In this document: in pieces, positions 7,731 to 13,905 of the stretch
Layout of the letters: each line of letters opens with the position of its first letter
How positions within the stretch are numbered: position 1 is the stretch's first letter
UHGV virus genome: UHGV-0086135
Source: a virus
DNA: 64,000 bases
Direction: 5' to 3' (one strand)
Made by a program: the position numbers and the translations under genes
The notes under the pieces: generated by a model
What the model was told of the DNA's origin: nothing
The model's input: the letters and a program-made list of their open reading frames with translations, nothing else
The model's database searches: none

Positions 7731-8912
7731 ATGTCTATTGCAGATTTAAAATCCCGTTTGATTAAAGCTTCCACTTCTAAAATGACTGCTGAACTGACTA
7801 CATCTAAATTCTTTAATGAAAAGGATGTAATCCGTACAAAAATCCCAATGCTTAATATCGCTATTTCTGGTGCGATTGATGGTGGTATGCAGTCTGGTTT
7901 AACCATTTTTGCAGGTCCTTCTAAACACTTTAAATCAAATATGTCTTTGACTATGGTTGCGGCGTATTTGAACAAATATCCTGACGCGGTATGTCTGTTT
8001 TATGATAGCGAATTTGGTATTACTCCAGCTTATTTGCGATCCATGGGAGTTGACCCGGAACGAGTAATTCATACACCAATTCAGTCAGTTGAACAGCTGA
8101 AAATTGATATGGTGAATCAGCTTGAAGCTATTGAGCGTGGTGAAAAAGTTATTGTATTCATCGACTCAATCGGTAATATGGCTTCTAAGAAAGAAACGGA
8201 AGATGCCTTAAATGAAAAATCTGTGGCAGATATGACTCGTGCTAAATCACTGAAGTCATTATTCCGTATTGTTACTCCTTATTTTAGTATTAAAAACATT
8301 CCATGTGTTGCGGTTAACCATACAATTGAAACAATTGAAATGTTTAGTAAAACCGTGATGACAGGTGGTACAGGCGTAATGTATTCGGCTGATACTGTAT
8401 TCATTATCGGTAAGCGCCAGATTAAAGATGGTTCTGATCTTCAGGGGTATCAATTTGTTCTAAATGTAGAAAAATCTCGTACCGTTAAAGAAAAAAGTAA
8501 ATTCTTTATTGATGTTAAATTTGACGGTGGTATCGATCCTTATTCTGGATTGTTAGATATGGCTCTTGAATTAGGATTTGTGGTAAAACCTAAAAATGGC
8601 TGGTATGCTCGTGAATTTCTTGACGAAGAAACCGGCGAGATGATTCGCGAAGAAAAATCTTGGCGTGCAAAAGATACCAATTGCACTACATTCTGGGGTC
8701 CTTTATTTAAGCATCAACCATTCCGAGATGCTATTAAACGTGCTTATCAGTTAGGTGCTATTGATAGTAATGAAATTGTTGAAGCTGAAGTTGATGAATT
8801 GATTAACTCAAAGGTTGAAAAATTTAAATCTCCAGAAAGTAAAAGTAAATCAGCAGCTGATTTAGAAACTGACCTAGATCAGTTAAGTGATATGGAAGAA
8901 TTTAATGAATAA
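7731..8912 (+). CDS. uvsX: recombinase UvsX (RecA-like)
   Basis: 393 aa; Walker A GPSKHFKS; near-identity to recalled T4 UvsX. Confidence 0.95.
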   Translation: MSIADLKSRLIKASTSKMTAELTTSKFFNEKDVIRTKIPMLNIAISGAIDGGMQSGLTIFAGPSKHFKSNMSLTMVAAYLNKYPDAVCLFYDSEFGITPAYLRSMGVDPERVIHTPIQSVEQLKIDMVNQLEAIERGEKVIVFIDSIGNMASKKETEDALNEKSVADMTRAKSLKSLFRIVTPYFSIKNIPCVAVNHTIETIEMFSKTVMTGGTGVMYSADTVFIIGKRQIKDGSDLQGYQFVLNVEKSRTVKEKSKFFIDVKFDGGIDPYSGLLDMALELGFVVKPKNGWYAREFLDEETGEMIREEKSWRAKDTNCTTFWGPLFKHQPFRDAIKRAYQLGAIDSNEIVEAEVDELINSKVEKFKSPESKSKSAADLETDLDQLSDMEEFNE

Positions 8913-9258: not shown

Positions 9259-10686
9259 GTGGTAGAAATTATTCTTTCTCATCTCATATTTGATCAAGCT
9301 TATTTTTCAAAAGTTTGGCCATATATGGATTCAGAATATTTTGAAAGTGGTCCAGCTAAAAATACATTCAAATTAATTAAATCTCATGTTAATGAATACC
9401 ATAGCGTTCCATCTATTAATGCGTTAAATGTTGCATTAGAAAATAGTTCATTTACTGAAACAGAATATTCTGGTGTAAAAACACTTATTTCGAAACTAGC
9501 CGATTCTCCAGAAGACCACAGCTGGTTAGTAAAAGAAACAGAAAAATATGTTCAGCAAAGGGCGATGTTTAATGCTACGTCTAAAATAATTGAAATTCAA
9601 ACTAATGCTGAGCTTCCTCCGGAAAAACGAAATAAGAAAATGCCAGATGTAGGTGCTATTCCTGACATCATGCGTCAAGCATTATCAATTTCATTTGATA
9701 GTTACGTTGGTCATGATTGGATGGATGACTACGAAGCACGTTGGCTATCTTATATGAATAAAGCTCGTAAGGTTCCATTTAAACTCAAAATTCTAAATAA
9801 AATTACTAAAGGCGGAGCTGAAACTGGAACACTGAACGTTTTAATGGCTGGTGTTAACGTTGGTAAGTCATTAGGATTGTGTTCATTGGCAGCAGATTAT
9901 TTGCAGCTCGGACATAATGTTCTTTACATTTCCATGGAAATGGCAGAAGAAGTCTGTGCTAAGCGTATTGATGCTAATATGCTTGATGTTTCTCTTGATG
10001 ACATTGATGATGGGCATATTTCTTACGCTGAGTATAAAGGAAAAATGGAAAAATGGCGTGAGAAATCTACTCTCGGTCGTTTAATCGTTAAACAGTATCC
10101 TACTGGTGGAGCAGACGCTAATACATTCAGGTCTCTCTTGAATGAATTGAAGCTCAAGAAGAATTTTGTTCCAACAATCATTATTGTTGACTATCTGGGT
10201 ATTTGTAAATCTTGCCGCATTAGAGTTTATTCAGAAAATAGTTACACAACTGTTAAAGCTATCGCAGAGGAATTGCGTGCTCTTGCTGTTGAAACTGAAA
10301 CTGTTCTTTGGACTGCAGCACAGGTTGGTAAACAAGCTTGGGATTCTTCTGATGTTAACATGAGCGATATCGCAGAATCTGCCGGTCTTCCAGCAACAGC
10401 CGATTTTATGCTTGCTGTCATTGAAACCGAGGAGTTAGCAGCTGCTGAACAACAACTTATTAAGCAAATCAAATCACGATACGGTGATAAGAATAAATGG
10501 AATAAGTTTTTGATGGGTGTTCAAAAAGGAAATCAGAAATGGGTAGAAATTGAACAAGATTCTACTCCAACTGAAGTGAACGAAGTAGCAGGTTCACAGC
10601 AGATTCAGGCTGAACAGAATCGCTATCAAAGAAACGAATCTGCTCGAGCCCAGTTAGATGCTTTGGCAAATGAATTAAAATTTTAG
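9259..10686 (+). CDS. 41: replicative DNA helicase gp41 (DnaB-like), GTG start
   Basis: 475 aa as T4 gp41; Walker A GVNVGKS; GTG start with AGGAG SD. Confidence 0.95.
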   Translation: MVEIILSHLIFDQAYFSKVWPYMDSEYFESGPAKNTFKLIKSHVNEYHSVPSINALNVALENSSFTETEYSGVKTLISKLADSPEDHSWLVKETEKYVQQRAMFNATSKIIEIQTNAELPPEKRNKKMPDVGAIPDIMRQALSISFDSYVGHDWMDDYEARWLSYMNKARKVPFKLKILNKITKGGAETGTLNVLMAGVNVGKSLGLCSLAADYLQLGHNVLYISMEMAEEVCAKRIDANMLDVSLDDIDDGHISYAEYKGKMEKWREKSTLGRLIVKQYPTGGADANTFRSLLNELKLKKNFVPTIIIVDYLGICKSCRIRVYSENSYTTVKAIAEELRALAVETETVLWTAAQVGKQAWDSSDVNMSDIAESAGLPATADFMLAVIETEELAAAEQQLIKQIKSRYGDKNKWNKFLMGVQKGNQKWVEIEQDSTPTEVNEVAGSQQIQAEQNRYQRNESARAQLDALANELKF

Positions 10687-10715
10687 TTTACAAGCTGACA
10701 AGACTATGGTATAGT
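10686..10715 (+). promoter_or_regulatory. early promoter
   Basis: -35 GTTTAC, 18 nt, TGGTATAGT. Confidence 0.6.
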
Positions 10716-10744
10716 AGTCTTGTTGGTTAAATGAGGAAATCTAA

Positions 10745-10939
10745 ATGGAAGAGTTTGCTAAAGTAGTTTTTATTGGTTGGTTTGAAAATGGTAGTATGTT
10801 TACCAAAGAAATCCGCATGGATATAACAGACAAAGAGCATATCATGTGGGCTACCATGCAGTTTGCTGAAATTAATAAAGCATTAGTTAAAGCATTTGTT
10901 AATGACGAGAAAGTTTTCGAAGCTGATTTCAGAGGATAA
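10745..10939 (+). CDS. dmd: small protein at the dmd (61.5) position, possible Dmd antitoxin
   Basis: 64 aa, first gene after 41 as T4 dmd (about 60 aa); own early promoter upstream; assignment by synteny and size only. Confidence 0.45.
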   Translation: MEEFAKVVFIGWFENGSMFTKEIRMDITDKEHIMWATMQFAEINKALVKAFVNDEKVFEADFRG

Positions 10940-10940
10940 T

Positions 10941-11198
10941 ATGCATATTGTTTTATTTAAACCTACTCCGTATAATGTCAGGAAAAATACTCAATTCAAA
11001 GCACTTATTGCAGATACGTGGGAATTGGTATTAGATATTCCAGCAGAAGAAAGTCCTCCATTTGGTCGAGTGGAATTTATTAAGTTTGCTGTGCGCCCTA
11101 CGAAGCGACAGATTCGTCAATGCAAAAGATACTTTCGTAAAATCGTCAAGTTAGAGAAACAGTTTGTAACATGTGATTATGCAGAAGTTTTAAAATAG
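10941..11198 (+). CDS. hypothetical protein (61.4 position)
   Basis: ATG 10941 with GAGGA SD; ORF-track start 10896 overlaps upstream gene. Confidence 0.5.
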   Translation: MHIVLFKPTPYNVRKNTQFKALIADTWELVLDIPAEESPPFGRVEFIKFAVRPTKRQIRQCKRYFRKIVKLEKQFVTCDYAEVLK

Positions 11199-11200
11199 CT

Positions 11201-11230
11201 GTTTACTTTTATTAGAAATTGAGATACTAT
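11201..11230 (+). promoter_or_regulatory. early promoter upstream of sp
   Basis: -35 GTTTAC, 18 nt, -10 TACTAT. Confidence 0.55.
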
Positions 11231-11258
11231 ATAAACATAAACTACTGAGGAGATTATC

Positions 11259-11552
11259 ATGAAAAAATTTATCTTTGCTACAATTTTTGCTTTATCTTCT
11301 TGTGCTGCTCAGCCTGCTATGGCGGGTTATGACAAAGATTTGTGTGAATGGTCTATGACTGCAGATCAGACTGAGGTTGAAACTCAAATTGAAGCAGATA
11401 TTATGAATATCGTTGAGCGTGATCGTCCTGAAATGAAAGCTGAAGTGCAAAAACAGCTTAAGTCTGGCGGTGTAATGCAGTATAATTATGTTCTGTATTG
11501 CGATAAAAACTTTAATAATAAAAATATCATCGCTGAAGTGGTAGGTGAGTAA
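11259..11552 (+). CDS. sp: spackle periplasmic protein Sp
   Basis: 97 aa as T4 Sp; cleavable signal peptide MKKFIFATIFALSSCAAQPAMA; synteny between 41 and 61. Confidence 0.7.
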   Translation: MKKFIFATIFALSSCAAQPAMAGYDKDLCEWSMTADQTEVETQIEADIMNIVERDRPEMKAEVQKQLKSGGVMQYNYVLYCDKNFNNKNIIAEVVGE

Positions 11553-11564
11553 TTAGAGGTTAGT

Positions 11565-11921
11565 ATGTATAGTTCTGAATTTTCATATTTAAAAATGGAA
11601 AAAATTTCATACGATTTTATAGATGAAAAGGTTTATTACAGTTTCCATGAACCACGTTTTAATAGTGAAGTTGGGTTTATTGTAGTAAAAGACAATTTCA
11701 TTTTAAAAATATATTCGGCATTAAAGGATTTTCACTACGAAAATATTAACCTAAAATTTGATAAAGAAAATGTTCGTAATTGCGCAGTAACAATTACAGG
11801 AAATAAAGGTACATGCGTTATGCTATCTGATGAAATTAATGATTTGTTAAATGATGTAGAAAAGGTTGCTATTCCATCTATTGATGACCAAATTTTTAAT
11901 GCTTTTATGAATAGAGGTTAA
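11565..11921 (+). CDS. hypothetical protein (118 aa)
   Basis: ORF with SD; no recognisable motif. Confidence 0.5.
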   Translation: MYSSEFSYLKMEKISYDFIDEKVYYSFHEPRFNSEVGFIVVKDNFILKIYSALKDFHYENINLKFDKENVRNCAVTITGNKGTCVMLSDEINDLLNDVEKVAIPSIDDQIFNAFMNRG

Positions 11922-11922
11922 T

Positions 11923-12087
11923 ATGAAAACATATAAAGAATTTATTAAAGAAGATATGGTAGCTGGAGACTCAGGCGGTAATCCTGAAAATATCTCCACT
12001 GGAACAACGTCAGGCGCTGTAGTAAATAAAGGTCCTGAACAGATTCCTAAAAAGAAAAAAGAGGAATCTAAAGAAAAAGAAGAGTAA
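11923..12087 (+). CDS. hypothetical small acidic/lysine-rich protein (54 aa)
   Basis: ATG 11923 overlaps upstream stop; ends 2 nt before primase start. Confidence 0.4.
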   Translation: MKTYKEFIKEDMVAGDSGGNPENISTGTTSGAVVNKGPEQIPKKKKEESKEKEE

Positions 12088-12089
12088 AA

Positions 12090-13118
12090 ATGTCATCAAT
12101 ACCTTGGATTGATAATGAGTTTGCATACCGCGCATTAGCTCATTTACCTAAATTCACACAAGTAAATAATAGTTCAACTTTTAAATTGCGGTTTAGATGC
12201 CCTGTTTGTGGAGATTCAAAAACCGACCAAAATAAAGCCCGTGGATGGTATTATGGTGATAATAATGAAGGAAATATTCATTGTTATAACTGCAACTATC
12301 ATGCACCAATCGGAATATATTTAAAGGAGTTTGAACCTGATTTATATCGTGAGTATATCTTTGAAATAAGAAAAGAAAAAGGTAAAAGTCGTCCAGTAGA
12401 AAAGCCTAAAGAACTTCCTAAACAACCTGAGAAGAAAATAATTAAATCTCTTCCGTCATGTATTAGATTAGATAAACTGGCGGAAGACCATCCAATTATA
12501 AAATATGTAAAAGCTCGTTGTATTCCAAAGGATAAATGGAAATATCTTTGGTTTACAACCGAATGGCCTAAATTAGTTAATAGCATAGCACCAGGAACAT
12601 ATAAAAAGGAAATACCTGAGCCTCGTCTTGTTATTCCAATTTATAATGCTAATGGAAAAGCTGAGTCTTTTCAAGGACGTGCATTAAAGAAAGATGCTCC
12701 TCAAAAATATATCACCATCAAAGCTTATCCTGAGGCAACAAAAATTTATGGAGTTGAACGAGTCAAAGATGGTGATGTATATGTTCTAGAAGGACCTATA
12801 GATTCACTTTTTATTGAAAATGGTATAGCTATTACGGGCGGTCAATTAGACCTAGAAATTGTTCCATTTAAAGATAGACGTGTGTGGGTTTTAGATAATG
12901 AACCTCGTCACCCTGACACTATTAAACGAATGACTAAATTAGTTGATGCAGGAGAAAGGGTTATGTTTTGGGATAAATCTCCCTGGAAATCAAAAGATGT
13001 TAATGATATGATTAGAAAGGAAGGTGCAACCCCTAAACAAATTATGGAATATATGAAAAATAATATTGCCCAAGGGTTGATGGCTAAAATGCGGCTATCT
13101 AAATACGCTAAGATTTAA
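12090..13118 (+). CDS. 61: DNA primase gp61
   Basis: 342 aa as T4 gp61; N-terminal zinc ribbon CPVCGDS...HCYNCNYH; toprim-like EGPIDSLF. Confidence 0.9.
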   Translation: MSSIPWIDNEFAYRALAHLPKFTQVNNSSTFKLRFRCPVCGDSKTDQNKARGWYYGDNNEGNIHCYNCNYHAPIGIYLKEFEPDLYREYIFEIRKEKGKSRPVEKPKELPKQPEKKIIKSLPSCIRLDKLAEDHPIIKYVKARCIPKDKWKYLWFTTEWPKLVNSIAPGTYKKEIPEPRLVIPIYNANGKAESFQGRALKKDAPQKYITIKAYPEATKIYGVERVKDGDVYVLEGPIDSLFIENGIAITGGQLDLEIVPFKDRRVWVLDNEPRHPDTIKRMTKLVDAGERVMFWDKSPWKSKDVNDMIRKEGATPKQIMEYMKNNIAQGLMAKMRLSKYAKI

Positions 13119-13315
13119 ATTAACCCAACTAAAGCAAATGCTAAATCTACGAATGTATCAAGAGTAATTACTGGAATATTAACACCATGAGCAATAGCAA
13201 TTGGTGATAAAACAAAATTCCAGAGTAAAATTCCTACCATAGCAGAAATAGTAAAAGCTATACGTTTTTTATTACCTTTTATGGCATTAACAAGTGCCAT
13301 TAATTTTTGTACCAT
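13115..13315 (-). CDS. small hydrophobic membrane protein (66 aa) on opposite strand
   Basis: Minus-strand ORF with AAGGAGG SD 5 nt upstream of ATG; two predicted TM helices; convergent with gene 61. Confidence 0.55.
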   Translation of the reverse strand: MVQKLMALVNAIKGNKKRIAFTISAMVGILLWNFVLSPIAIAHGVNIPVITLDTFVDLAFALVGLI

Positions 13316-13328
13316 ATATCCTCCTTAT

Positions 13329-13352
13329 TGCTTTATATATTTATTGTATAAT
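13329..13352 (+). promoter_or_regulatory. putative MotA-dependent middle promoter for gene 56
   Basis: Exact MotA box core TGCTTTA, 11 nt spacer, TATAAT. Confidence 0.55.
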
Positions 13353-13386
13353 TAATCTACTAACCCATGAATTGAAAGGAAAAATA

Positions 13387-13905
13387 ATGGCATACTTTAA
13401 TGAATGTTCACAACTGATTGAAGGCGCTGATAAAGCTCAAAATGAATACTGGGATATTCTCGGTGATGAAAAAGACCCTCTGCAAGTTATGCTTGATATG
13501 CAGAAATCTCTACAGGTTCGTTTAGCTAAAGATAAACCTGAATATAACCGTCATCCTGATGATTTGGCTACTGCGGGTGAAGTTGTTGATTGGCTGCGTA
13601 ATCAGAAAGATTATATTGATGATGAATTCCGCGAACTACTGACTTCTCTTGGTGGTATGAGCAATGGTGAAAAAGATGCATCTGCTGTATGGAAGCCTTG
13701 GAAAGCTCAACATGGTGAACGACGTGAAACTTTAATTACTGATTTGTCTCCACAAGACCAGTTGGAAATTAAATTCGAAATGATTGATATTCTTCATTTC
13801 GTTCTAAACATGTTCCAAGGTCTCGGTCTTACGGCTGAAGAAATCTTTAAACTTTATTATCTGAAAAATGCTGAAAACTTCGCTCGTCAAGACCGAGGTT
13901 ATTAA
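13387..13905 (+). CDS. 56: dCTPase/dCDPase gp56 (MazG-like)
   Basis: 172 aa from ATG 13387 (T4 gp56 about 171 aa); MotA-box promoter upstream; ORF-track N-terminal extension rejected. Confidence 0.8.
   Translation: MAYFNECSQLIEGADKAQNEYWDILGDEKDPLQVMLDMQKSLQVRLAKDKPEYNRHPDDLATAGEVVDWLRNQKDYIDDEFRELLTSLGGMSNGEKDASAVWKPWKAQHGERRETLITDLSPQDQLEIKFEMIDILHFVLNMFQGLGLTAEEIFKLYYLKNAENFARQDRGY

What the first reader, a model, noticed from the sequence alone, without database searches (positions are those of the whole stretch)
10745..12087. Gene 41-61 interval is a likely anti-defence hotspot with non-T4 content
In T4 this interval carries sp, dmd (antitoxin against RnlA/LsoA) and other small genes. 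Here it has five ORFs (64, 85, 97, 118, 54 aa). The 97-aa signal-peptide protein fits Sp and the 64-aa ORF is a Dmd candidate by position and size. The 118-aa and 54-aa ORFs have no motif I can recognise and may be lineage-specific inhibitors.
Basis: partly seen in the sequence, partly recalled or inferred. Interest (0 to 1): 0.5.

Follow-up and report, generated by a model that had tools for sequence, protein, structure and literature searches.

The report
T4 anti-toxin island with swapped cassettes
The five small genes between the helicase and primase genes are phage T4's already published "anti-toxin island" (dmd, tifA, spackle, the adfA slot, 61.1), ordinary in kind, but here two of the five have been replaced by other versions, one of them copied precisely from a phage of another genus.

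Summary
The five ORFs exist exactly as described (64, 85, 97, 118, 54 aa, + strand, between gene 41 and gene 61). The content is T4's, gene for gene, not "non-T4". The genes are dmd, tifA (61.4), sp, the 61.2/adfA slot and 61.1. TifA, Sp and gp61.1 are 96-99% identical to T4. The interval is already published as an "anti-TA island" (PMC9391042).

Two cassettes differ from T4:
- The dmd ORF is only 63% identical to T4 Dmd but 99% identical in DNA to a Mosigvirus-type allele. The breakpoints are sharp and lie in the two ribosome-binding sites, so this is a precise one-gene swap between genera.
- The adfA slot holds a 118-aa protein, the one in T2 and RB32 and about 300 phage records. Its Pfam AdfA match depends on a 14-residue C-terminal tail (SIDDQIFNAFMNRG) that three different protein bodies share. 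Its body resembles the C-terminal half of AdfA only weakly.

The 54-aa gp61.1 occurs in about 1400 T4-like phage records. It resembles the protease-cleavage junction of the major capsid protein.

The Dmd and Sp calls are right. "Non-T4" and "lineage-specific" are wrong. Interest is modest.

The parts
9259..10686 (+). Gene 41 replicative helicase (left flank)
   Evidence: 475 aa, 99.6% identical to T4 gp41.
10687..10715 (+). Early-type promoter of the dmd-tifA operon (TTTACA-17-TATAGT, TG before the -10). A 10-bp stem-loop at 10697-10724 is embedded in it, like a PeSL motif.
   Evidence: Promoter scan 10/12. Stem-loop z = -2.4. This stretch matches T4 at all but one base, and in T4 an early promoter drives dmd-tifA (PMC9391042). 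PeSL motifs are described in PMC2839356.
10738..10931 (+). Minimal swapped segment carrying a Mosigvirus-type dmd allele. The crossovers fall within 10732-10737 (TGAGGA) and 10932-10943 (GAGGATAATATG).
   Evidence: Three-way alignment. The window matches T4 closely outside this segment and matches ECO26.1 3-1 and moskry inside it. The dmd CDS is 99.0% and 97.4% identical in DNA to those two phages, while their flanks are only about 76% identical to the window.
10745..10939 (+). dmd (gene 61.5), 64-aa antitoxin against the RnlA/LsoA HEPN RNase toxins
   Evidence: PF17587 88.1 bits (cut-off 27), phrog_2102 1.3e-31. PDB 5I8J (RB69 Dmd) 1.7e-23 and 5HY3_B (T4 Dmd) 2.2e-20. 62.9% identical to T4 Dmd and 96.9% to moskry Dmd.
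10941..11198 (+). tifA (gene 61.4), 85-aa inhibitor of the ToxN toxin
   Evidence: 98.8% identical to T4 gp61.4. PF23945 72.7 bits. Function shown for T4 TifA in PMC9391042 and PMC10853763.
11202..11230 (+). Probable second early promoter upstream of sp (TTTACT-17-TACTAT) (inferred)
   Evidence: Read from the sequence. It scores 8/12, below the scan threshold. The region is near-identical to T4, and PMC9391042 mentions a promoter downstream of tifA.
11259..11552 (+). sp (spackle), 97-aa periplasmic protein with a signal peptide
   Evidence: PF25676 152 bits. 97.9% identical to T4 Sp. PDB 6X6O 2.2e-61. The crystallised mature form 7CN6 starts at residue 23.
11565..11921 (+). S-type occupant of the 61.2/adfA slot, 118 aa (RB32ORF033c, the T2 '61.2'): a single beta5-alpha domain followed by the conserved tail
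   Evidence: phrog_4122 9.3e-73. 100% identical to pSs-1 gp48 and present in 333 phage records. The same ORF is in T2. AF2 pLDDT 83. Weak similarity of the body to T4 AdfA residues 109-172.
11877..11921 (+). Shared C-terminal tail SIDDQIFNAFMNRG. It is also the right-hand junction at which the window rejoins T4 sequence.
   Evidence: T4 alignment resumes at 11877. The tail is invariant in alignments A1 and A2. It is shared by the L, M and S bodies, with synonymous variation in the DNA.
11923..12087 (+). Gene 61.1, 54 aa, function unknown. Residues 4-39 resemble the major capsid protein gp23 across its maturation cleavage site.
   Evidence: 96.3% identical to T4 gp61.1. phrog_1823 7e-34. 1397 phage records. 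Matches gp23 residues 59-94 with 16/36 identical, E 0.0085.
12090..13118 (+). Gene 61 primase (right flank)
   Evidence: 342 aa, 98.2% identical to T4 gp61.

Best explanation
The interval is the T4 'anti-TA island': dmd, tifA, sp, the adfA slot and 61.1. It is transcribed early, in the same direction as genes 41 and 61, from a promoter ahead of dmd and probably a second one ahead of sp.

Functions taken from work on the T4 proteins:
- Dmd binds the RnlA/LsoA HEPN ribonuclease toxins and blocks them.
- TifA binds ToxN together with RNA and traps it.
- Spackle is exported to the periplasm and blocks the tail lysozyme of superinfecting phage.

The backbone is 96-100% T4 in protein, but two cassettes have been exchanged.

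(1) The dmd ORF alone was replaced by a Mosigvirus-type allele. Recombination took place in the 6-nt and 12-nt stretches, around the ribosome-binding sites of dmd and tifA, that both genera share. I infer that this gives the phage a Dmd tuned to a different set of RnlA/LsoA-like toxins.

(2) The slot that holds the two-domain AdfA (208 aa) in T4 holds only the single-domain 118-aa 'S' protein here. S is not an allele of AdfA. It is a paralogue that sits in tandem after AdfA in other T4-like phages. The S-only layout most likely arose by deletion of the AdfA gene.

S, AdfA ('L') and a third 145-aa body ('M') all end in the same invariant tail, S[IV]DDQIFNAFM[NK]R[GD]. I infer that S is a small toxin-binding inhibitor of the AdfA kind, in which the variable body picks the target and the tail is a common functional handle. 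Its target is not known.

Shown here: gene identities, the breakpoints, the tail sharing and the tandem arrangements. Inferred: the target specificity of this Dmd allele, and any function of S and gp61.1.
For: - Gene identities and synteny with T4.
- Published island and functions: PMC9391042, PMC10853763, PMC8266594, PMC11825919.
- dmd swap, identities: the dmd CDS is 99.0% identical in DNA to ECO26.1 3-1 and 97.4% to Mosigvirus moskry. The flanks of those phages are about 76% identical to the window.
- dmd swap, breakpoints: the last Mosigvirus mismatch on the left is at 10731 and the first T4 mismatch at 10738. The last T4 mismatch on the right is at 10931 and the first Mosigvirus mismatch at 10944.
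- dmd swap, rarity: only 4 of 743 Dmd-bearing records are at least 90% identical in protein. No record matches promoter plus dmd (10680-10945) end to end above 82%.
- S protein, extent of the replacement: the T4 alignment is lost over 11554-11876 and resumes at 11877.
- S protein, distribution: the same ORF is in T2. It is in 333 records, against 487 for AdfA and 743 for Dmd, so at least about 77 records have both, if all carry Dmd.
- S protein, tandem arrangements: L then S in L024 and NBEco003. M then S in a Gaprivervirus and in Yersinia phage P8.
- Structure: the S model is confident (pLDDT 83), five strands and a helix, then a strand, a helix and the tail helix. The AdfA model (pLDDT 68) shows two such strand-helix units plus a tail helix.
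- Fold search: Foldseek against viral models recovers only L, S and M, in both directions.
- Body similarity without the tail: blastp E 0.002-0.012 and hhalign P 4.7e-4 for S 21-79 against T4 AdfA 109-172.
- Tail: invariant in homologues found by whole-protein similarity, while 6 of its 9 core codons vary synonymously.
Against: - No experiment bears on this Dmd allele.
- For S, the one indirect experiment is negative. T2 carries S and was described as lacking adfA. It becomes about 10,000-fold sensitive to DarTG1 once adfN is deleted, so S does not neutralise that DarT1 in its natural context. The same is true of full-length T4 AdfA.
- The Pfam AdfA match of S disappears when the 14-residue tail is removed. 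In more distant S proteins the match covers only the tail. Homology of the bodies therefore rests on weak scores (hhalign probability 32%) and on predicted folds.
- The residue aligned with the DarT1-binding determinant (RB69 R164 / T4 H165) is Asn in S.
- The tail overlaps the ribosome-binding site of the next gene, so part of its conservation could be at the RNA level.
- The deletion-scar argument rests on 12 of 13 bases that include a GAGG motif.
Confidence: 0.85

Rival explanations
1. One reading: the interval carries non-T4, lineage-specific inhibitor genes, namely the 118-aa and 54-aa ORFs.
For: The 118-aa ORF has no full-length counterpart in T4 itself. It has no informative match in NCBIfam, PADLOC or the PDB.
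Against: The 54-aa ORF is 96.3% identical to T4 gp61.1 and is found in 1397 records across many host genera. The 118-aa ORF is in 333 records, including T2, RB32, RB27 and RB51. Three of the five proteins are 96-99% identical to T4.
Confidence: 0.05
2. The 118-aa ORF is a decaying remnant of AdfA, a truncated pseudogene kept only because its 3' end carries the translation start signals of 61.1. On this view it has no function of its own.
For: It is about half the length of AdfA, and its Pfam match depends on the tail. T2 with S but without adfN is DarTG1-sensitive. The literature treats T2 as lacking adfA.
Against: The ORF is intact and 94-100% conserved in about 295 records. Relatives at 41-50% identity keep a similar length (119-125 aa) and 34 invariant positions. 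The predicted fold is compact and confident (pLDDT 83, all five models 81-83). It has its own GAGG ribosome-binding site. It also occurs next to an intact AdfA or M gene in tandem, which a truncation remnant would not.
Confidence: 0.08
3. The shared tail is conserved for nucleic-acid reasons: translational coupling or the ribosome-binding site of the next gene, or as a homology patch for recombination. On this view it is not a functional peptide.
For: The stop codon of every tail lies 1-2 nt before the next ATG, and the last codons, AGA/CGA GGT TAA, contain the GAGG-like site. The tail is exactly where the window rejoins T4 sequence. It is 90% identical in DNA between genera whose flanks are 66-70% identical.
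Against: Among 17 distinct DNA versions, 6 of the 9 core codons vary synonymously while the amino acids do not change. That set was collected by a pattern that fixes those amino acids. However, the same invariance appears in homologues collected by whole-protein similarity. A ribosome-binding site needs only the last 10 nt or so, not 42 nt. Both models predict the tail as a helix.
Confidence: 0.3
4. The divergent Dmd arose by fast diversifying selection in place, not by transfer from another genus.
For: Dmd is an arms-race protein. Most of the 743 Dmd-bearing records are only 60-80% identical to this allele in protein.
Against: The CDS is 99.0% identical in DNA to a phage whose neighbouring genes are about 76% identical to the window. 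The breakpoints are abrupt. There are 37 base mismatches to T4 plus 12 nt of length difference inside 10738-10931, against one mismatch in the 45 nt before and none in the 54 nt after.
Confidence: 0.03

Closest known systems
T4 'anti-TA island' (genes 61.5-61.1: dmd, tifA, sp, adfA, 61.1), Srikant et al. 2022 (PMC9391042)
   Same: Same position between genes 41 and 61, same order, strand and promoter. TifA, Sp and gp61.1 are 96-99% identical.
   Different: The dmd allele is the Mosigvirus type (63% identical to T4 Dmd). The adfA slot holds only the 118-aa S protein instead of the 208-aa AdfA.
Dmd of RB69 and Mosigvirus phages (PDB 5I8J) and T4 Dmd in complex with LsoA (PDB 5HY3)
   Same: Full-length match at the same length, 64 aa. 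The conserved core is GWF..MFTKE...W.T.Q.AE.N.ALVKAF..D.KV.E.D.RG.
   Different: 64% identical to RB69 Dmd and 63% to T4 Dmd. The loop at residues 24-33 (RMDITDKEHI) is 4 residues longer than in T4. Its toxin specificity has not been tested.
AdfA (T4 gp61.2; RB69 AdfA R164H), a DarT1-binding counter-defence protein (LeRoux et al. 2022, as cited in PMC11825919)
   Same: Same slot between sp and 61.1, and an identical C-terminal tail. There is weak similarity to AdfA residues 109-172, including a VG.I.VKDN.I motif. The predicted beta5-alpha unit is similar.
   Different: It is half the size, with one domain instead of two. There is no Pfam match without the tail. Asn stands at the position aligned with the H/R164 determinant. 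It co-occurs with AdfA in tandem, so it is a paralogue and not an allele. T2, which carries it, is not protected from DarTG1 once adfN is deleted.
Modular gene shuffling in T4-type phages at PeSL promoter/stem-loop motifs (Arbiol et al. 2010, PMC2839356; Comeau et al. 2014, PMC4122927)
   Same: A single small early gene is exchanged as a cassette between related phages. A promoter with an embedded stem-loop sits just upstream.
   Different: The crossovers map downstream of the stem-loop. They lie in the ribosome-binding-site microhomologies at the two ends of the ORF, not in the PeSL-like motif.

Membership tests
Dmd (Pfam PF17587) | Full-length profile match above the curated cut-off | tested here: met
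   88.1 bits against a cut-off of 27, residues 3-64 on profile 2-60/60. phrog_2102 1.3e-31.
Dmd (Pfam PF17587) | Sequence relative of structurally solved Dmd proteins | tested here: met
   5I8J_A 1.7e-23 and 5HY3_B 2.2e-20, both over the full length.
Dmd (Pfam PF17587) | First gene of the early dmd-tifA operon just downstream of gene 41 | tested here: met
   Gene order and promoter. The operon is described in PMC9391042.
Dmd (Pfam PF17587) | Binds and inhibits RnlA and/or LsoA | not testable with these tools
   Needs co-expression or binding assays. Shown only for T4 Dmd (PMC8266594).
TifA (gp61.4; Pfam DUF7279 PF23945) | Profile match above the cut-off and near-identity to the characterised T4 protein | tested here: met
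   72.7 bits against a cut-off of 24.5. 84/85 residues identical to T4 gp61.4. The central basic cluster RPTKRQIRQCKRYFRK is present.
Spackle (Pfam PF25676) | Full-length profile match, N-terminal signal peptide, match to solved Spackle structures | tested here: met
   152 bits against a cut-off of 27. 6X6O 2.2e-61. The mature crystallised form starts at residue 23. 95/97 residues identical to T4.
AdfA (Pfam PF23813) | Profile match above the curated cut-off | tested here: met
   33.3 bits against a cut-off of 27, residues 22-118 on profile 113-211/211.
AdfA (Pfam PF23813) | Homology of the protein body, independent of the shared 14-residue tail | tested here: inconclusive
   No Pfam match at E<=1 once the tail is removed. 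In P0006 and P0007 the match covers only the last 17-19 residues. Tail-less blastp gives E 0.002-0.012, and hhalign gives P 4.7e-4 with probability 32%. Foldseek links S, L and M at E 1e-4 to 8e-4 with TM about 0.5, but the tail was included.
AdfA (Pfam PF23813) | Two-domain architecture of about 208-216 aa | tested here: not met
   118 aa with one beta5-alpha unit, against two units in the AdfA model. The exhaustive search finds only relatives of 118-125 aa.
AdfA (Pfam PF23813) | His at the position equivalent to RB69 residue 164, the determinant of DarT1 binding (PMC11825919) | tested here: not met
   RB69 R164 and T4 H165 align with Asn72 of the 118-aa protein. The alignment in this region has low confidence.
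AdfA (Pfam PF23813) | Located between sp and 61.1 | tested here: met
AdfA (Pfam PF23813) | Binds DarT1 and restores plating on DarTG1 hosts | not testable with these tools
   Indirect evidence only. T2, which has the same ORF, loses about 4 logs on DarTG1 when adfN is deleted.
gp61.1 (phrog_1823) | Full-length profile match and position immediately upstream of gene 61 | tested here: met
   7e-34 on profile 1-54/54. 52/54 residues identical to T4 gp61.1.

The most novel reading that the evidence does not exclude
The proteins in the adfA slot form one modular family. Three different bodies are involved: L (AdfA), M (about 145 aa) and S (the 118-aa protein here, also in T2 and RB32). Each would recognise a different host toxin, DarT variants or others. 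The invariant C-terminal helix S[IV]DDQIFNAFM[NK]RG would be a common functional handle, for example docking to one shared host or phage partner. On this reading, phages described as 'lacking adfA' in fact carry an unrecognised counter-defence paralogue. A second, weaker reading is that gp61.1 is an early-made decoy that mimics the cleavage junction and N-arm of the major capsid protein.
Probability: 0.25. Interest if true: 0.6.

Novelty: new member of a known kind. Interest (0 to 1): 0.3.

Why it matters
The locus is a published anti-toxin island, so finding it here adds nothing new in kind. Three details may help people who work on phage counter-defence.

- The dmd swap is a clean natural example of a single antitoxin ORF moving between phage genera, with the crossovers inside ribosome-binding sites. 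It shows at what scale counter-defence genes are exchanged.
- The 118-aa protein is in T2 and about 300 sequenced phages. It shares an invariant tail with AdfA and often sits next to it. Yet experimental work has scored T2 as lacking adfA, so it is an obvious untested candidate inhibitor.
- gp61.1, the most widely conserved gene of the island, resembles the major capsid protein at its maturation site. That suggests concrete experiments for a gene with no known role.

Tried and rejected
- PADLOC and NCBIfam scans of all five proteins gave nothing useful.
- PDB sequence searches of the 118-aa and 85-aa proteins gave no meaningful match.
- The word-indexed protein search found only 5 close clusters for the 118-aa protein.
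- The exhaustive HMMER search over 1.84 billion representatives found only 3 (118, 119 and 125 aa). AdfA itself did not reach significance at that database size.
- The idea that AdfA is a simple fusion of an M-type and an S-type gene was not supported. Tail-less M against AdfA gives only E 0.06-0.5.
- The idea that the dmd swap was mediated by the promoter stem-loop (PeSL) was rejected, because the left crossover lies downstream of it.
- No terminator-like site was found in the interval.
- A literature search for gp61.1 found no functional study.
- One literature query was wasted on Duchenne 'DMD' papers.
- I did not check whether PQ561406 (Ec2-ASingh), one of the four close dmd carriers, has a Tequatrovirus backbone.
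Full report
**What is there**

The window is a T4-like (Tequatrovirus) phage genome. Its best matches over the first 25 kb are 95-96.5% identical, so the exact phage is not in the collection.

- 10745-10939, 64 aa
- 10941-11198, 85 aa
- 11259-11552, 97 aa
- 11565-11921, 118 aa
- 11923-12087, 54 aa

Each ORF has a GAGG-type ribosome-binding site. A strong sigma-70-like promoter, TTTACA-17-TATAGT, lies at 10687-10715.

**Identity of the genes**

T4 has the same five slots in the same order: dmd (60 aa), 61.4 (85), sp (97), 61.2 (208) and 61.1 (54). Pairwise comparison with T4 gives:

| Protein | Identity to T4 |
|---|---|
| gp41 | 99.6% |
| gp61 | 98.2% |
| 85-aa ORF vs gp61.4 | 98.8% |
| 97-aa ORF vs Sp | 97.9% |
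| 54-aa ORF vs gp61.1 | 96.3% |
| 64-aa ORF vs Dmd | 62.9% |
| 118-aa ORF vs gp61.2 | 35%, over the C-terminal half only |

Family scans agree:
- Dmd: PF17587, 4.8e-25
- gp61.4: DUF7279, 2.3e-20
- Spackle: PF25676, 6.8e-45
- AdfA: PF23813, 4.1e-8, for residues 22-118 of the 118-aa ORF
- 54-aa ORF: phrog_1823, 7e-34

Solved structures exist for Dmd (5I8J, 5HY3) and for Spackle (6X6O, 7CN6).

**What is already known about the locus**

- Srikant et al. 2022 showed that 61.4 encodes TifA, an inhibitor of the ToxN toxin. They showed that dmd and tifA form an early operon.
- They proposed that this region is an 'anti-TA island', because it also holds dmd (anti-RnlA/LsoA) and 61.2, which is adfA (anti-DarT). 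They wrote that other genes in the region 'are attractive anti-toxin candidates' (PMC9391042).
- TifA traps ToxN on RNA (PMC10853763).
- Dmd sits in the groove between the TBP2 and HEPN domains of LsoA (PMC8266594).

'Non-T4 content' is wrong for three of the five genes.

**The dmd cassette**

This Dmd allele is rare.
- Of 743 phage records with a Dmd, only 4 are at least 90% identical to it in protein. The best is moskry at 96.9%.
- In DNA the CDS is 99.0% identical to ECO26.1 3-1 and 97.4% to moskry.
- Moskry is a Mosigvirus, the RB69 group. ECO26.1 3-1 is only about 76% identical to the window across uvsX-41.

A three-way alignment fixes the breakpoints.
- On the left, the last mismatch to the Mosigvirus sequences is at 10731 and the first mismatch to T4 is at 10738.
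- On the right, the last T4 mismatch is at 10931 and the first Mosigvirus mismatch is at 10944.
- The crossovers therefore lie in the shared TGAGGA (10732-10737) and GAGGATAATATG (10932-10943). These are the ribosome-binding sites and starts of dmd and tifA.
- Exactly one ORF has been exchanged between genera.

No record matches promoter plus dmd (10680-10945) end to end above 82%. This chimera is therefore not in the collection.

The promoter carries a 10-bp stem-loop (10697-10724, z -2.4) of the PeSL kind described for cassette shuffling in T4-type phages (PMC2839356). The left crossover lies downstream of it. That the new allele changes toxin specificity is an inference.

**The 118-aa protein**

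The T4 alignment is lost between 11554 and 11876. It resumes at 11877, inside the last 14 codons of the ORF.

The protein is common.
- It is in 333 phage records, about 295 of them at 90% identity or more, including RB32, RB27 and RB51. It is 100% identical to pSs-1 gp48.
- T2 has it too. T2's annotated 108-aa '61.2' is the same ORF started at an internal Met, and the 118-codon frame with its GAGG site is intact in T2.
- The DarTG literature nevertheless describes T2 as naturally lacking an adfA homologue (PMC11825919).

Is it an AdfA?
- The Pfam hit passes the cut-off. It vanishes when the last 14 residues are removed.
- In more distant relatives (P0006, P0007) the hit covers only the last 17-19 residues.
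- Without the tail, blastp gives E 0.002-0.012. Profile comparison gives P 4.7e-4 (probability 32%) for residues 21-79 against T4 AdfA 109-172, including a VG.I.VKDN.I motif.
- An exhaustive HMMER search of 1.84 billion representatives finds only three clusters, of 118, 119 and 125 aa.
- The AlphaFold model is confident (pLDDT 83). It has five strands, a helix, a short strand, a helix and then the tail helix.
- The AdfA model (pLDDT 68) has two five-strand-plus-helix units and the tail helix.
- Foldseek against viral models links the 118-aa, 145-aa and 208-216-aa proteins to each other and to nothing else, in both directions. The tail contributes to those scores.
- The residue aligned with the DarT1-binding determinant (RB69 R164 / T4 H165) is Asn.

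I therefore do not file it as an AdfA. It is a single-domain paralogue in the same slot.

**The shared tail and the slot as a small gene family**

Scanning loci for the tail shows three kinds of body ending in S[IV]DDQIFNAFM[NK]R[GD]:
- L: AdfA, 208-216 aa
- S: 116-119 aa
- M: about 145 aa, in a Gaprivervirus, in Yersinia phage P8 and in several IMG/VR viral contigs of about 170 kb

They occur singly or in tandem:
- M then S in vB_EcoM_RZ and Yersinia phage P8.
- L then S in the T4-like contig L024, whose order is dmd, tifA, sp, L, S, 61.1, 61.
- L then S in NBEco003, with L at 148104-148733 and S at 148738-149091.

The counts are 487 records with L, 333 with S and 743 with Dmd. If all of these carry Dmd, at least about 77 carry both L and S. 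S is therefore not an allele of AdfA. T4 is L-only, while this window and T2 are S-only.

The bases upstream of S in the window (AGAGGTTAGTATG) match the end of a tail plus the start of the next gene (AGAGGTTAATATG) at 12 of 13 positions. This fits an origin of the S-only layout by deletion of L, but it is weak evidence.

The tail is invariant in homologues gathered by whole-protein similarity, even where the bodies fall to 41% identity. Its DNA varies synonymously at 6 of 9 core codons. The set was selected by a pattern that fixes those amino acids, so the codon counts alone would be biased. I read the tail as a functional peptide. The rival is that it is kept for the downstream ribosome-binding site or as a recombination patch, and I give that 0.3.

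**Function of S**

There is no direct evidence. My best guess, at probability about 0.25-0.3, is a toxin-binding inhibitor of the AdfA type with a different target.

Against a role versus E. coli DarTG1: T2 lacking adfN drops about 4 logs on DarTG1 although it carries S. T4 lacking adfN does the same although it carries a full AdfA, so this test does not discriminate (PMC11257639).

**gp61.1**

This is the most widely conserved gene of the interval, with 1397 records including Klebsiella, Acinetobacter and Aeromonas phages. No functional literature was found.

- Residues 4-39 align with T4 major capsid protein gp23 residues 59-94, with 16/36 identical and E 0.0085 against the PDB.
- Searches with gp61.1 also hit gene 23 itself in distant phages.
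- Mature gp23* chains (456 aa, against 521 for the precursor) align with an offset that places the maturation cut between E10 and D11 of gp61.1.
- The preceding I-K-E fits the (L/I)-x-E rule of the T4 prohead protease (established knowledge). This motif is kept in the RB69, moskry and vB_EcoM_RZ homologues as LFE and INE.

Whether this is a substrate mimic, a decoy or a relic of partial gene duplication is open.

**Verdict**

This is a real and correctly delimited locus, but it is the known T4 anti-TA island rather than novel content. The instance-specific features are a precise intergeneric swap of the dmd ORF and an S-only adfA slot. The tail-sharing L/M/S family and the capsid-like segment of gp61.1 are small leads that I did not find in the papers read here.

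Noticed in passing
window 11923-12087 (residues 4-39 of the 54-aa protein): gp61.1 resembles the major capsid protein gp23 at residues 59-94, with 16/36 identical. The match spans the prohead-protease maturation site, and an (L/I)-x-E motif is kept in homologues from other genera. Some genome records annotate this small gene as 'major capsid domain-containing protein'. No functional study was found.
   Followed up: partly
window 10697-10724, inside the promoter 10687-10715: A perfect 10-bp stem-loop is embedded in the early promoter upstream of dmd (z -2.4). It resembles the PeSL promoter/stem-loop motifs implicated in cassette shuffling in T4-type phages. The dmd crossover lies just downstream of it, not within it.
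   Followed up: partly
L024 4211-5204 (reverse-complement coordinates); L008 2059-2851; L007 3872-4712: In other T4-like phages the slot after sp holds two tail-bearing genes in tandem (L then S, or M then S). Each ends in DDQIFNAFM and each stops 1-2 nt before the next ATG. The L copy in L024 has Asn, not His or Arg, at the position equivalent to residue 164.
   Followed up: partly
window 13115-13315 (- strand) and 13119-13390: Directly after gene 61 there is no dam methylase gene, which is what T4 has there. Instead a 66-aa hydrophobic ORF lies on the opposite strand (the RB32ORF030w type), followed by the dCTPase gene (56), soc.2 and soc, as in Shigella phage vB_SsoM_113.
   Followed up: no
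window 7731-8912: UvsX is only 90.3% identical to T4 UvsX, while the adjacent gp40 and gp41 are 100% and 99.6% identical. This suggests another mosaic boundary near the uvsX/40 junction.
   Followed up: no
L003 2012-2690 and L005 3470-4148: In RB69 and moskry (Mosigvirus) the superinfection-immunity genes imm and imm.1 lie inside this interval, between 61.4 and sp. Two extra ORFs precede dmd. The island is therefore larger and differently composed in that genus.
   Followed up: no
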